64,000 bases of DNA from NCBI RefSeq assembly GCF_009914755.1, contig NC_060931.1; one strand, given 5' to 3'. The notes under the pieces were generated by a model. The model worked only from the letters and a program-made list of their open reading frames with translations. It was not told the origin of the DNA and searched no databases. This DNA comes from the human T2T-CHM13v2.0 reference genome, Homo sapiens. Made by a program: the position numbers and the translations under genes. Numbering within the stretch: the stretch's first letter is position 1; each line of letters opens with the position of its first letter. Shown in pieces: positions 39,902-60,076 of the stretch.

Positions 39902-40145
39902 TTTATATACTGCGGTAATGCCCACGGTGGTTCCTGGACTGCATGTCTTGATTGGATGAGAAAAAAACCTCCAGGCTTACTCTGATTGGACTTTATGATC
40001 ATGTTCTGGTTGGATGAGAGCAAGTCTTAACACAACCAATCACAGCATGAAAATAAAGTCCAATCAGAATAGGCCTAGAGGTTTTTTTCTCGTCCAATCA
40101 GAACATGTAGTCCAGGAACTGCATTTGCATAACCTCATATATAAA
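39902..40145. promoter_or_regulatory. Palindromic bidirectional Pol II promoter
   Basis: TATATAAA on minus at 39902-39909 and on plus at 40138-40145. ATTGG at 39951 and 39985, GTTGG at 40009; CCAAT at 40036, 40060 and 40094. Octamer ATTTGCAT at 40123-40130. Symmetry axis ~40024. Confidence 0.8.
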
Positions 40146-40169
40146 GCATGCTGAGGTCGCATCAGGTCA

Positions 40170-40498
40170 TTTCAGGCTCTTCGGTGTCGAGCAGAGGAGC
40201 AACTCTGTGCCCAGCTTAGAGGACTGAAAGAGGCCACAACCTTCCGCCTGCTGGAGGGTGGAGGATGGATGGAGCCTGGAGCCTGGGTCACTACCTTGTT
40301 GCGGTTTGTGGTGGCGATAGAGCAGTAGGATGGTGGCCGGCAGCAGGAGCTTCTGCTGATGGGCTGGGGGACTAGAAGGAAGAGGCACTGCCACGTGCTG
40401 GAGGCTGGAACCTGTGCCACCATGGCTCGCCTCGCTGTGGTTGGTGGTGACGTCGGAGACTGCAGCTCAGCCACAGTAGTAGAAATGTGATGGGGTAG
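40170..40498 (+). other. Predicted non-coding first exon ending in a strong 5' splice site
   Basis: Starts ~30 nt after the TATA and ends at TAG|GTGAGT (GT at 40499-40500). No transcript evidence available. Confidence 0.45.
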
Positions 40499-40519
40499 GT
40501 GAGTTTTCCGGGCCTGCCC

Positions 40520-41095
40520 TTTATGTCTCTTGGGGCAAGGGTTGGGTGTCCTATTGGGGCTTACTGCTAGAGGCTACCCTGCCTGTGGCAGTGGTCTGGT
40601 TGGGGGCACTCTCCGGGGTTGCATTGCTGGTGGTGGGGCAGGTTGCCTGGCTATCTGGGGCTATACTGCCCGTGGTGGCAGGGGTGGTGGGGGGAGGCAG
40701 ATTGTGTACACTAGCTTGTATTGCTGGTGGCTGGGGAAGGATTAGGGGCACTATCTTCTGCTGCACTGCCCGCAGCAGGGGGTGGGTTGGGTGGAGTTAT
40801 GCGGGGCTACAATGTTGGCAGTGGGGGGTGATTTAGGGGCGTTGTTGGGTGCTGCATTGCCTGTGACTTGGGGGTGCATCATTAGGAGCTGAACTGCCCG
40901 TGGCTGGGTCAGATTGTGGGCACTATTGGGTGGTATGCTCCCTGAGGTGTGGGGGAAGTGCTTTTGGGGGGGGTATTGGGGTTACATTGCCTGAAACTGT
41001 AGGGTGTGTTGGATGTGCTATCTGGGGGCTACACTGCTAGTGGCAGGGGGCAGATTAGGGGTGCCATGGGGGCTACACTGCCAGTGGCATTGGCG
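40520..41095. repeat. Degenerate G-rich tandem repeat
   Basis: About 12 copies of GGGGCTACACTGCC-like cores separated by GGTGG/GGGG runs. Confidence 0.75.
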
Positions 41096-57247: not shown

Positions 57248-58175
57248 TCTTTTTTTTTTTTTTTTTGAGAGGGAGTCTGGACCCCTCACCCAAGCTGGAG
57301 TGCAGTGGTGCCATCTCAGCTCACTGCAACCTCTGCCTCCCAGCTTCAAGTGATTCTCTTGCCTCAGCCTCCCAAGTAGCTGGGTTTACAGGCGTGTGCC
57401 ACCATGCCTGGCTAATTTTTTGTATCTTTAGTAGAGACTGGGTTTCACCATGTTGGCCAGGCTGGCCTTGAACTCTGACCTCGTGATCTGCCCGCATTGG
57501 CCTCCTAAAGTGCGTGAGCCACCACGCCTGGCCGTAAAATTCTTTCTATACGTTTTTTCTTTTATTTTTTGAGTCAGAGTTTCATTGTGTCACCCAGGCT
57601 GGAGTGCAGTGGCACAATCACGGCTCACTGCAGTCTTGACCTCCTGGGCTCAAGTGATCCTCCTGCCTCAGCCTCCCAGGTAGCTGGGACCATGGGTGTG
57701 TACCGCCATGCCTAATTAATTTTTTCCTTTTTTTTTTTTGAGACAGAGTCTCGCTCTTTCACCGAGGCTGGAGTGCAGTGGCCCGATCTTGGCTCACTGC
57801 AAGCTCCACCTCCTGGGTTCATGCCATTCTCCTGCCTGTCTCCCGAGTAGCTGGGACTACAAGCACCCACGACCACACCCGGCTACTTTTTTGTATTTTT
57901 AATAGAGACGGGGTTTCACCGTGTTAGCCAGGATGGTCTCGATCTCCTGACCTCACGATCCGCCCGCCTCGGCCTCCCAAAGTGCTGGGATTATATGCGT
58001 GAGCCACCGCACCTGGCCGCCTAACTAATTATTATTATTATTATTTTAATTTTCTTGTAGAGATAGGTCTGGCTTCATTGCCCAGGCTGGTCTTGAATAC
58101 TTGGCCTTAGGAGATCCTCCGATCTTAACTTCCCAAAGTGCTGGGATTACAGGTGTGAGCCACTGTGGCCAGCCT
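57248..58175 (-). mobile_element. AluS (57248-57533) followed by AluJ (57552-58175) with nested AluY (57721-58017)
   Basis: Alu bodies; TSD GCCTAA(T/C)TAATT around the inner AluY. Confidence 0.88.
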
Positions 58176-59063
58176 ATAAGTTTTGTTTTAAAGTTAGATT
58201 GAATGACAATTCCCTAGAAAATTTTATTTTCTAAACCTAACTGGATAAAGAATATATTGATAAAAACTGGGAATTTGATCAATTTGTCATACTGAATTAT
58301 TTTTTGAATTTGCCCTCTTCCCAAATACCTTGAAGTGATGGAAACAAAATTAAAACTTTACTAATAAAGTATTAAATGGGTGGAGATTTTATATATATAA
58401 AATTATATGTTATATTTTTATGTATACAATTATATAATTTTCATCTTATATTTAAATTCTATTTTTTAAAACCACCCAATTAGGTAATAATAGAACTCCG
58501 GTCTTAAAGTAAGAGTGTATGTACACACATGCACATGTGTATATGTGTATATAAAATTTTTGTCATGGGAGTTTTATATATAATTAAGATAGAAATTATA
58601 TATTATGGCACACATTTCTATACATACGTAATATTCTCTACCGTATGTATGTAAAATACTCCCATATTAATTATGTGTAACATAAATATTTGTGTTATCC
58701 TGAAACATAAACATAGATAATCATGTTTTAGGATGGGAATACTCAGGAGTATAAGGGTACCTGTTCTCCCATTAGTCAGTCTGTGAATTCAATATTTATG
58801 TGTTCTCATCCAGAATTTCTCTGGGACCTGACAAGCTGACTCTGATGCTTGTGTGTAAGAGGAAATGTGCTAGAATAGCTGGGAAGGTGGTGAAAGTAGC
58901 AGCAACAACAAAGCACAGTGAGGTGAAACTTGCCCTGCTGGATATGAAACCTCGTAATACCAGAGTAATTTGAAAAGTGTGGCATTGGCACAAGAAAAGA
59001 CAGACAAATCAAATTAGTCTAGAATTGTGGACAAATAGGAATATACTTTTTAATGAGGATGGC

Positions 59064-59348
59064 TTTTTCTTTCTTTCTTTTTTTTTTTGCCCCAGCTGGT
59101 GTGCAATGGTGTGATCTTGGCTCACTGCAACCTCCGCCTCCCAGGCTCAAGCAATTCTCCTGCCTCAGCCTCCCAAGTAGCTGGGATTACAGGCGCATGT
59201 CACCATGCCCGGCTAATTTTTGTATTTTTAGTAGAAAAGAAGTTTCACCACGTTGGCCAGGCTGGTCTCGAACTCCTGACCTCAAGTGATCCACCAGCCT
59301 CAGCCTCCCAGAGTGCTGGGATTACAGGAGGAGCCACCGCTCCTGGCC
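59064..59348 (-). mobile_element. AluS
   Basis: Antisense Alu with a short deletion next to the tail. Confidence 0.9.
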
Positions 59349-59898
59349 TTCTTTTTCTTTATTTGCTATTTCAGTTCCATAGAAGCATGCAAAGAATAAC
59401 ATAACAAATGTCCATCTACCTACCATCTGTGATTACAAAACTTAGTATTTGATCATCCTTGCTTCAGAATTATTTAATAAAGACAATACTTCCTCTGTAC
59501 AAATGCTTACCTTAAAACTACTCTTGAATTCTTTTCACAATTGACTTATCAACTCCCAAATTTAAAACCATGTATTTTTGTCTTTATATTCCTCAGACGT
59601 TTATAGAAAGGTATTTACTGAGCAGTTACTATGTGCCAGATATTATGCTGTTTTTTATATACTGGTTTTACTTTATATAGCTAATTATATTATTTGTCAC
59701 ATATTAACCTATTTTAAATATGAAAAGAAGTGACGTATTAATGTTTTCAAACCTTGGTAACTTTTATTAAGTAAATACTTGAGAGGAAGCTTTTACTGGT
59801 AATTGTGGTTTTATTTATGTAGCTGTAGTTATAATTTATTAGAAGTACACTTGGTGTTTTAGTTCTTATTAATTCTATTTTTTTCCCATCCTGTTGAG

Positions 59899-60076
59899 AT
59901 GGTTTCCTAGAAACATGATTGTTTATTGGCGTTGATCTTACAGTCTGGTGAGGACTTCTTTACTGATAATGTCAAGTTCAGGTTATCCTCCCAACCAAGG
60001 AGCATTCAGCACAGAATAAAGTTGTTATCCTCCTCACTCTGTAAAGTATACATTTCCCAGCACCTGCCACCAGCAG
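59899..60076 (+). pseudogene. NCOR1P: Unprocessed NCOR1 pseudogene: copy of the first coding exon (exon 2), within paralogous introns
   Basis: ATG at 59969 gives MSSSGYPPNQGAFSTE*SCYPPHSVKYTFPSTCHQQ versus NCOR1 MSSSGYPPNQGAFSTEQSRYPPHSVQYTFPNTRHQQ. TAA at 60017-60019; donor CAG|GTAAGG after 60076; pyrimidine tract and AG at 59897-59898. Which numbered paralogue it is cannot be determined here. Confidence 0.93.

What the first reader, a model, noticed from the sequence alone, without database searches (positions are those of the whole stretch)
39902..60076. Promoter-swap chimera: repeat-derived bidirectional promoter and donor placed upstream of a headless NCOR1 duplicate
Seen: the NCOR1 first coding exon copy is preceded by ~15 kb of Alu-dense intron-like DNA, but no CpG-island exon 1 is visible. 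Instead there is a TATA/CCAAT promoter and a consensus donor (TAG|GTGAGT, 40498/40499) in the same orientation ~19 kb upstream. Known: NCOR1 has a non-coding exon 1 and several unprocessed duplicates, and REP522 elements have been reported as bidirectional promoters of lncRNAs and pseudogenes activated in cancer cells. Inference: segmental duplication fused a new promoter and exon to NCOR1 exon 2, creating a chimeric, differently regulated transcript. In this copy it would be non-coding or encode a 16-aa peptide.
Basis: partly seen in the sequence, partly recalled or inferred. Interest (0 to 1): 0.8.

Follow-up and report, generated by a model that had tools for sequence, protein, structure and literature searches.

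The report
Headless NCOR1 copy behind a repeat promoter
A promoter-less duplicate of the NCOR1 gene sits just downstream of a palindromic, promoter-like repeat, but the same junction is present in all seven human NCOR1 pseudogene copies and no RNA evidence could be obtained, so it is an old piece of pericentromeric patchwork and not a proven new gene.

Summary
Window 39.7-40.45 kb is a palindromic module with a CCAAT cluster and a TATA box at each end, and it fits the published description of REP522. On the + strand it is followed by a roughly 330-nt putative exon and a consensus donor at 40498/40499.

Homology to the true NCOR1 locus starts abruptly at 44446, inside an intron-1 Alu, 4.5 kb short of NCOR1's CpG island. 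It runs colinearly through exon 2 (59899-60076), which reads MSSSGYPPNQGAFSTE then TAA. The copy is therefore headless and lies about 4 kb downstream of a foreign promoter-like module in the same orientation.

The junction is not specific to chr7. All 7 NCOR1P copies (chr7, 13, 14, 17 twice, 20, 21) share it. The module and its donor belong to an older duplicon with at least 18 copies, including three 'empty' chr17 copies that keep the pre-fusion sequence. The fusion probably arose once near the chr17 centromere and then dispersed.

The chimeric transcript is untested: no RNA data were available, and RefSeq has no model starting near 40 kb. Only the chr7 copy carries a weakened acceptor (GAG|A) and the TAA, and the module's G-rich flank is CpG-depleted. 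A chimeric RNA is possible but would be non-coding here.

The parts
38400..39708 (.). C-rich left flank of the REP522-like element, made of degenerate repeats of about 35-55 nt
   Evidence: GC skew is -0.76 to -0.78 at 38500-39499. Direct-repeat families D3-D8 lie here.
39709..40447 (.). Palindromic centre of the REP522-like element. The tight core arms are 39930-40016 and 40033-40119.
   Evidence: Core arms are 87 nt and 85% complementary. Looser arms are 70-74% complementary. The genome search also returned the reverse-strand self match.
39902..39909 (-). Mirror TATA box (TATATAAA read on the - strand)
39951..40098 (.). Cluster of five CCAAT boxes, two on the - strand and three on +
   Evidence: Five lie within 200 bp, the maximum anywhere in the window, against a mean of 0.38.
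40138..40146 (+). TATATAAAG box facing the NCOR1 copy
   Evidence: TATAAA is kept in 6 of 7 NCOR1P copies and deleted on chr20. CCAATCAGA plus a 25-60 nt gap plus TATATAAAG is found 38 times in the genome, 26 of them REP522-type, against 5 for the control pattern.
40169..40498 (+). Putative first exon of 330 nt. The start is inferred from an initiator-like TCATTTC 29 nt after the TATA box.
   Evidence: Sequence. The start site is inference only. The exon holds 7 ATGs, all followed by in-frame stops.
40499..40504 (+). Consensus splice donor GTGAGT after TAG
   Evidence: GTGAG is kept in 7 of 7 NCOR1P copies. The 26-nt context occurs in 18 genome copies against 0 for the control, and 17 of the 18 keep GTGAGT.
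40505..42000 (.). G-rich right flank of the REP522-like element, depleted of CpG
   Evidence: GC is 0.59-0.61 with GC skew +0.18 to +0.40. CpG observed/expected is 0.14-0.33.
42001..44445 (.). AT-rich remainder of the older acceptor duplicon, containing old interspersed repeats
   Evidence: Present in all 7 NCOR1P copies and in 'empty' copies at C17:20.81, 23.25 and 28.03 Mb and C9:106.72 Mb.
44446..44448 (.). Fusion junction between the acceptor duplicon and the NCOR1 fragment, with 2-3 nt of overlap
   Evidence: With a probe of 43850-45050, 7 of 7 NCOR1P copies match right across. Empty copies stop at 44448 and true NCOR1 starts at 44446. Flanking sequences were compared.
44446..44572 (-). 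Truncated antisense Alu. The breakpoint lies in the middle of a full-length Alu of NCOR1 intron 1.
44446..59898 (+). The last 15.45 kb of NCOR1 intron 1
   Evidence: One colinear match 44446-62167 to C17:16112538-16094682, 91.9% identical.
59899..60076 (+). Copy of NCOR1 exon 2, the first coding exon. The acceptor reads TTGAG|A and the donor CAG|GTAAGG.
   Evidence: G at position -3 is found in 1 of 8 copies. The donor is kept in 8 of 8.
59969..60019 (+). Sixteen-codon remnant of the reading frame, ending in a chr7-specific TAA at 60017-60019
   Evidence: The other 7 of 8 copies have CAA at this codon.
60077..62167 (+). NCOR1 intron 2 sequence. The duplicate continues beyond the window.
   Evidence: The supplied annotation extends NCOR1P3 to 70265.

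Best explanation
This is one of seven copies of a composite pericentromeric duplicon.

A 5' fragment of NCOR1 was joined by a non-homologous junction with 2-3 nt of overlap to an older duplicon. The fragment starts inside an Alu in the middle of intron 1 and so lacks exon 1 and the CpG-island promoter. The older duplicon already carried a palindromic TATA/CCAAT module fitting the description of REP522, followed by an exon-like stretch and a splice donor.

The join most likely happened once near the chr17 centromere. From sequence divergence and recalled mutation rates, this was very roughly 20-25 million years ago. The composite was then copied to chr7, chr20 and the acrocentric short arms.

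The arrangement gives every copy the layout for a transcript that starts in the repeat and splices into NCOR1 exon 2. That layout is a by-product of the patchwork. In the chr7 copy it is probably silent in most tissues: the flank is CpG-depleted, and a REP522-bearing locus elsewhere is reported to be H3K9me3-marked. If it is made, it is non-coding, because the acceptor is weakened, nine ATGs lie upstream of the NCOR1 ATG, and a stop falls at codon 17.

Shown: the anatomy, the breakpoint, its sharing by all copies, and the copy-specific defects. Inferred: place and date of origin, promoter activity, and silencing.
For: - An exon 2 probe finds 8 places in the genome: true NCOR1 and 7 copies.
- True NCOR1 matches the window only from 44446 onward. 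The six other copies are colinear with the window from before 31.4 kb (start of the chr20 match; before 30 kb in the other five) to 62-64 kb at 92-95%.
- With a junction probe, 7 of 7 NCOR1P copies match right across. True NCOR1 matches only the right half. The copies at C17:20.81, 23.25 and 28.03 Mb, C9:106.72 Mb and others match only the left half.
- The two empty copies fetched (C17:20.81 Mb and C9:106.72 Mb) continue past the junction with a shared, unrelated sequence. The NCOR1 breakpoint lies inside a full-length Alu.
- NCOR1's CpG island lies 4.5-6.5 kb beyond the breakpoint.
- The module is a family trait. It occurs at 40 scored places. The CCAAT-TATA pair matches 38 times against 5 for the control. 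The donor context matches 18 times against 0.
- The tree of the NCOR1-derived part is star-like. Non-CpG K2P distance is 0.049 to NCOR1 and 0.032-0.043 among lineages.
- The closest empty copies are all on chr17 and interleave with NCOR1P copies in the tree of the upstream block.
- Defects specific to chr7: GAG|A acceptor and TAA, each in 1 of 8 copies. Nine ATGs precede the NCOR1 ATG in the hypothetical spliced RNA.
- CpG observed/expected is 0.14-0.33 in the G-rich arm.
- Literature passages: REP522 is enriched among cancer-activated promoters (PMC4896275). Its expression peaks at the 8-cell stage (PMC6545021). It is more than 2-fold enriched in lncRNA exons (10.1101/189753). The REP522-bearing BAGE locus is H3K9me3-marked in human liver (PMC3560060).
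Against: - No RNA, CAGE, methylation or chromatin data for this locus could be examined, so both 'silent' and 'promoter-capable' are inferences.
- One paper lists NCOR1P3 as up-regulated (log2 2.23) in a gastric cancer cell line over-expressing DLL3 (PMC8973010). Some RNA may therefore be made here, although short reads are ambiguous among seven copies.
- The REP522 label rests on fit to a published description, not on alignment to a consensus.
- NCOR1P-bearing copies are not a single clade in the 2.1-kb upstream-block tree: C17:20.81 'empty' groups with five of them at support 0.996. This calls for gene conversion, or a more complex history than one clean fusion.
- The ancestral sequence distal to the junction was not found near any NCOR1P locus (40 of 365 candidates scored). 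The event was therefore not a simple insertion.
- The genome search scores only the best candidates, so copy counts are lower bounds.
Confidence: 0.75

Rival explanations
1. The chr7 repeat module is an active bidirectional promoter, and its 40169-40498 exon is spliced to NCOR1P3 exon 2. This would give a chimeric non-coding RNA with oncofetal or cancer-type regulation from this locus.
For: - A TATA box with an initiator-like site, five CCAAT boxes and a consensus donor all lie on the same strand as the NCOR1 copy.
- The module and the donor are conserved across the family.
- REP522 is reported to be enriched among cancer-activated promoters and in lncRNA exons.
- NCOR1P3 appears in one list of differentially expressed genes.
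- The exon 2 donor is intact.
Against: - No junction evidence exists, and RefSeq has no model starting near 40 kb (supplied annotation).
- Only the chr7 acceptor has G at position -3 and A at +1. From recall, G is the rarest base at -3.
- The 19.4-kb intron is full of Alus that offer competing sites.
- A single consensus donor is expected by chance.
- CpG depletion suggests long-term germline methylation.
Confidence: 0.12
2. NCOR1P3 RNA exists but does not start at the repeat module. It would come from read-through, from a cryptic start in the Alu-rich intron 1 remnant, or from mis-assigned reads of NCOR1 or the other six copies.
For: - NCOR1P3 was reported in a short-read expression table.
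- Exon 2 is 94-96% identical among the 8 copies, so short reads can be mis-assigned.
- The weak chr7 acceptor argues against splicing from an upstream exon.
Against: No data on transcript structure were available. No alternative promoter was identified in 44.4-59.9 kb, and there is no CpG island there.
Confidence: 0.2
3. The TATA/CCAAT palindrome is not a promoter at this locus at all. The motifs are relics of the repeat's sequence, and they lie near the NCOR1 fragment only because duplicated segments pile up near centromeres.
For: - The donor motif is not enriched.
- The module was there before the NCOR1 fragment arrived.
- The neighbouring G-rich arm is CpG-depleted.
Against: - The CCAAT-TATA pair is kept exactly in 26 REP522-type copies. 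Eleven of these are among 19 copies that are only 70-79% identical overall (my own cross-tally of the rows). That is more than uniform decay would leave, although the copies are not independent.
- Published CAGE work ties REP522 to promoters.
Confidence: 0.1

Closest known systems
BAGE gene family (MLL3/KMT2C fragments reshuffled in juxtacentromeric regions)
   Same: A fragment of a chromatin-regulator gene was duplicated into pericentromeric DNA and then copied to several chromosomes, including acrocentrics (PMC4041455 passage citing Ruault 2003). The BAGE locus holds a large REP522 region and is H3K9me3-silenced in liver (PMC3560060 passage).
   Different: BAGE is an expressed cancer/testis gene with a product (from recall). 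No transcript is shown here, and the chr7 copy cannot code. I did not check whether the BAGE promoter lies in REP522.
REP522-associated cancer-activated promoters and lncRNAs (FANTOM5 CAGE work)
   Same: The element fits the description of a palindromic, unclassified interspersed repeat of about 1.8 kb. It has clear promoter motifs and an exon-like stretch with a donor.
   Different: Activity of this copy is untested. The primary papers (Kaczkowski 2016, Horie 2017) are not held, so I could not see whether any NCOR1P locus is among their promoters.
Annotated NCOR1 unprocessed pseudogenes (NCOR1P1 to NCOR1P4)
   Same: This is NCOR1P3. It keeps introns colinear with the parent gene and carries a stop codon.
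   Different: RefSeq starts NCOR1P3 at exon 2 (59900), but genomic homology starts 15.45 kb earlier, at 44446. The shared upstream repeat module did not turn up in print in my searches.
Mosaic pericentromeric segmental duplication: seeding followed by block-wise spread, with Alu sequence at duplication breakpoints (recalled work from the Eichler laboratory)
   Same: The breakpoint lies inside an Alu. A new segment abuts an older duplicon, and the composite was then copied to several pericentromeres.
   Different: Nothing differs in kind; this looks like a typical example. The comparison rests on recall, and no paper on it was read.

Membership tests
REP522 interspersed repeat | Largely palindromic element of about 1.8 kb (description in PMC4896275) | tested here: met
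   The palindromic centre spans 39709-40447, with 87-nt core arms 85% complementary. It is flanked by a C-rich arm and a G-rich arm, and the whole skewed, GC-rich block spans about 38.4-42 kb. The block is longer than 1.8 kb, so its outer limits are uncertain.
REP522 interspersed repeat | Many dispersed copies in the genome | tested here: met
   40 scored places (of 91 candidates) on chr2, 5, 9, 10, 13, 14, 15, 17, 18, 20, 21 and 22.
REP522 interspersed repeat | Alignment to the Repbase/Dfam REP522 consensus | not testable with these tools
   No repeat library is available. The supplied mask list names no families and does not list 38.4-42 kb among its long masked stretches.
Unprocessed (duplicated) pseudogene of NCOR1 | Colinear with the parent gene, introns included | tested here: met
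   A single match 44446-62167 to C17:16112538-16094682, 91.9% identical.
Unprocessed (duplicated) pseudogene of NCOR1 | Disabling change relative to the parent | tested here: met
   CAA changed to TAA at codon 17. The promoter and exon 1 region were not copied.
Promoter-swap chimeric gene (foreign promoter and first exon spliced to a truncated duplicate) | Foreign promoter-like element and donor upstream of a truncated gene copy, on the same strand | tested here: met
Promoter-swap chimeric gene (foreign promoter and first exon spliced to a truncated duplicate) | Capped RNA that joins the foreign exon to the gene's exon | not testable with these tools
   No RNA or CAGE data are available. RefSeq has no such model in the supplied table.
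Promoter-swap chimeric gene (foreign promoter and first exon spliced to a truncated duplicate) | Usable acceptor at the recipient exon | tested here: inconclusive
   The AG is kept, but position -3 is G and +1 is A in this copy only. Among the other copies, two have CAG|G and four have TAG|A, and NCOR1 itself has TAG|G. No splice-site scoring tool was available.
Bidirectional promoter | Mirror-image core promoter motifs facing outward | tested here: met
   TATA boxes at 39902 (-) and 40140 (+) flank five CCAAT boxes.
Bidirectional promoter | Divergent transcription start sites in use | not testable with these tools
   No CAGE data. The word 'bidirectional' did not appear in the REP522 passages I read.

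The most novel reading that the evidence does not exclude
The repeat module drives embryo- or cancer-specific chimeric RNAs into NCOR1 exon 2 from several of the seven copies. Six of the seven keep exon 2 open. Some of these RNAs could then encode short N-terminal NCOR1 fragments, or act as a BAGE-like family of oncofetal transcripts derived from a nuclear corepressor gene.
Probability: 0.1. Interest if true: 0.6.

Novelty: new member of a known kind. Interest (0 to 1): 0.3.

Why it matters
If RNA from these loci is real, seven near-identical copies could together give a repeat-driven, cancer- or embryo-specific transcript family carrying NCOR1 sequence. That would confound NCOR1 expression and mutation calls, and it would be a second BAGE-like case.

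As it stands, the result is mainly a clean, base-resolved example of how pericentromeric patchwork places a truncated gene behind a ready-made promoter. It also corrects the annotated extent of NCOR1P3, which is missing 15.45 kb of intron 1 homology.

Tried and rejected
- Rfam: no family reached its gathering score in 36-64 kb. A permissive scan of 38.3-42.2 kb gave only sub-threshold hairpin matches to plant microRNA models on the palindrome, the best at 43 bits against a cut-off of 74. I take these as generic hairpin hits. No mir-5701 match appeared, although a preprint links that microRNA to Rep522.
- Simple insertion model: the ancestral sequence distal to the junction was not found next to any NCOR1P locus (40 of 365 candidates scored), so I dropped this model.
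- Donor as evidence: AGGTRAGT occurs once against 4.85 expected, so it carries no weight alone. TATAWAAG was not informative either, with 6 found against 9.6 expected and the box at 40138 not fitting that pattern.
The limit rests on the supplied annotation (70265).
- Literature: Kaczkowski 2016 is not held, and Horie 2017 had no PMC id in the reference list I saw. Searches for HSREP522 and for NCOR1 + acrocentric + T2T found nothing. The search for NCOR1 + pericentromeric + segmental duplication + pseudogene gave one irrelevant preprint. The 13 papers that name NCOR1P1-4 are gene lists, judged from titles and abstracts; I read passages only of PMC8973010.
- No supplementary files were opened. 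Supplements of the FANTOM5 papers may list the REP522 promoters.
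Full report
**What is in the sequence**

- Between 39.7 and 40.45 kb lies a palindrome. Its tight arms, 39930-40016 and 40033-40119, are 87 nt long and 85% complementary. Looser symmetry (70-74%) reaches 39709-40447.
- The palindrome holds five CCAAT boxes: 39951 and 39985 on the minus strand, and 40036, 40060 and 40094 on the plus strand. 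This is the densest 200-bp stretch in the whole 64-kb window, where the mean is 0.38 per 200 bp.
- A TATA box sits at each end, at 39902 on the minus strand and at 40138-40146 (TATATAAAG) on the plus strand.
- An initiator-like TCATTTC puts a plausible start at 40169, 29 nt after the plus-strand TATA box. This is an inference from recalled consensus rules.
- The left flank (38.5-39.5 kb) is strongly C-rich, with GC skew about -0.77. The right flank (40-42 kb) is G-rich, with GC 0.53-0.61.
- At 40498/40499 there is TAG|GTGAGT. It is the only AGGTRAGT in the window. About five are expected by chance, so the donor alone means little.
The one given as 41634 is at 41635/41636.

**The NCOR1 part**

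- Exon 2 is copied at 59899-60076 and reads MSSSGYPPNQGAFSTE followed by TAA.
- A 261-nt probe finds eight places in the genome: this one, six other copies (C17:21.58 Mb, C17:22.74 Mb, C20:26.12 Mb, C13:12.04 Mb, C21:9.12 Mb, C14:7.25 Mb), and a place at C17:16.10 Mb. I take the last as true NCOR1, because a CpG island lies about 21 kb upstream and its exon 2 reads through.
- I fetched 35-40 kb around each place and compared them with the window.
- True NCOR1 matches the window in one colinear stretch, 44446-62167, at 91.9% over 18,026 columns. To the left of 44446 it gives only scattered Alu-type hits of about 300 bp, and none in 38.4-44.4 kb.
- The only CpG island in the 20 kb upstream of the breakpoint in true NCOR1 is at C17:16117001-16119000. 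That is 4.5-6.5 kb beyond the breakpoint at C17:16112538.
- The window has no CpG island anywhere in 38.4-64 kb; the one qualifying stretch from 36 kb on (37500-37999) lies in the Alu triplet.
- The copy is therefore headless, and the '15 kb of intron-like DNA' is the last 15.45 kb of NCOR1 intron 1.

**The junction**

- On the NCOR1 side the break lies in the middle of a full-length antisense Alu, so the window keeps only 44446-44572 of it.
- I searched the genome with a probe spanning the junction (43850-45050). This scored 40 of 7541 candidates.
- All seven NCOR1P copies match right across the junction. True NCOR1 matches only from probe position 597.
- Copies at C17:20.81, 23.25 and 28.03 Mb (94-96%), C9:106.72 Mb (90%) and several more distant ones match only up to position 599.
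- The 'empty' copies at C17:20.81 Mb and C9:106.72 Mb continue past that point. Their sequence there is shared with each other and unrelated to NCOR1. They show the state before the fusion.
- The two sides overlap by only 2-3 nt, so the join was non-homologous.
- The ancestral distal sequence was not found near any NCOR1P locus (40 of 365 candidates scored). The event was therefore not a simple insertion.

**The upstream module is a family trait**

- The 641-nt stretch 39880-40520 matches 40 scored places (of 91 candidates) in duplication-rich parts of chr2, 5, 9, 10, 13, 14, 15, 17, 18, 20, 21 and 22.
- The exact pair CCAATCAGA plus a 25-60 nt gap plus TATATAAAG occurs 38 times in the genome, against 5 for the reversed control. 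Twenty-six of the 38 are REP522-type by their spacer sequence.
- By my own cross-tally of the rows, 11 of the 19 copies that are only 70-79% identical overall still keep both motifs. This hints at constraint on the core, though many copies are recent duplicates of each other.
- The 26-nt donor context occurs 18 times (up to 3 mismatches) against 0 for the control, and 17 of the 18 keep GTGAGT.
- Among the seven NCOR1P copies, TATAAA is kept in six; a 9-bp deletion removes it on chr20. GTGAG is kept in all seven.
- The element fits the published description of REP522: about 1.8 kb, largely palindromic, and an unclassified interspersed repeat (PMC4896275, meeting abstract passage). I could not align it to a consensus.

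**History (inferred)**

- In the NCOR1-derived 15.7 kb, non-CpG K2P distance is 0.049 between the window and NCOR1. It is 0.032-0.043 among the four lineages, 0.013 between the two chr17 copies, and 0.001-0.002 among the chr13, 14 and 21 copies.
- The tree is star-like. The groups are chr7; the chr17 pair; and chr20 with the acrocentric trio. The node joining chr7 to the chr17 pair is unsupported, at 0.50.
- In the 2.1-kb block just upstream of the junction, the three empty chr17 copies interleave with the NCOR1P copies. The chr9 copy is the outgroup at 8.9%.
- NCOR1 and all the closest empty sites are on chr17. The simplest story is therefore a single fusion near the chr17 centromere followed by rapid spread.
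- With recalled primate substitution rates this is of the order of 20-25 million years ago.
- The non-monophyly suggests some gene conversion, or a less tidy history.

**Would the chimera be made here?**

- All seven copies have the layout. The chr7 copy is the worst candidate.
- Its acceptor reads TTGAG|A. NCOR1 has TTTAG|G, the chr17 copies have TTCAG|G, and the other four copies have TTTAG|A. From recall, G is the rarest base at position -3.
- The TAA at 60017 is also unique to chr7 (1 of 8 copies). The other six pseudogene copies keep exon 2 open.
- A hypothetical 40169-40498 / 59899-60076 RNA would carry nine ATGs before the NCOR1 ATG.
- The G-rich arm has GC near 0.6 but CpG observed/expected of only 0.14-0.33. 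This is the signature of long-term germline methylation.
- The supplied RefSeq table has no model starting near 40 kb and gives no exons for NCOR1P3.
- On the other side, one paper lists NCOR1P3 as up-regulated in a DLL3-over-expressing gastric cancer line (PMC8973010 passages).
- The literature also ties REP522 to cancer-activated promoters and to cancer-specific lncRNAs (PMC6925957 passage).
- It further reports an 8-cell expression peak (PMC6545021 passages) and enrichment in lncRNA exons (10.1101/189753 passage).
- I had no RNA, CAGE or methylation data, so the transcript remains untested.

**Comparison with what is known**

- The closest precedent is the BAGE family: MLL3 fragments reshuffled in juxtacentromeric DNA (PMC4041455 passage citing Ruault 2003). 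The BAGE locus holds a large REP522 region that is H3K9me3-marked in human liver and active in a heterologous setting (PMC3560060 passage).
- The present case has the same architecture but no shown product.
- I found no paper describing the shared REP522-NCOR1P junction. The primary FANTOM5 papers and all supplements were not seen.

**Verdict**

- The fusion is an old feature shared by the whole family, not a chr7 event.
- The chimeric transcript is unproven, least likely from this copy, and non-coding here in any case.
- I score it as a new member of a known kind, of modest interest.

Noticed in passing
L025-L036 (C13:12.01 Mb, C21:9.08 Mb, C14:7.24 Mb), aligned to window 44560-60279: The three acrocentric NCOR1P copies are nearly identical to each other (non-CpG K2P 0.001-0.002). 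All other pairs differ by 0.013-0.055. This points to very recent exchange among acrocentric short arms.
   Followed up: partly
window 44446-59898 versus the annotated NCOR1P3 start at 59900: RefSeq starts the pseudogene at exon 2. It therefore leaves out 15.45 kb of NCOR1 intron 1 homology that belongs to the same duplicated segment.
   Followed up: yes
window 37395-38384: Three Alu-like units lie head to tail, at spacings of 315 and about 349 bp and 82-90% identity, directly left of the REP522-like block.
   Followed up: no
window 40359-40490: A 43-codon reading frame lies inside the putative first exon. It contains an internal ATG in a Kozak-like GCCACCATGG context at 40416-40425 and stops 8 nt before the donor. 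There is no evidence that it is translated.
   Followed up: no
G000:C17:20812197-20817325, C17:23253581-23258728, C17:28029904-28035105: Three chr17 copies of the REP522-bearing duplicon lack the NCOR1 fragment. Two lie on one side of the two chr17 NCOR1P copies and one on the other. The one fetched past the junction (C17:20.81 Mb) keeps the ancestral sequence there, and a probe made from that sequence matches the other two at 93-96%.
   Followed up: partly
L017-L020 (C20:26.11 Mb) and L021-L024 (C17:22.73 Mb): The chr20 copy has lost the plus-strand TATA box through a 9-bp deletion, has a 25-bp insertion in the putative exon, and carries about 1.6 kb of extra DNA in the intron 1 part. The C17:22.73 Mb copy lacks most of the left palindrome arm.
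   Followed up: no
window 41486-41611: A second, small inverted repeat (36-nt arms, 83% complementary, 54 nt apart) lies in the G-rich arm.
   Followed up: no
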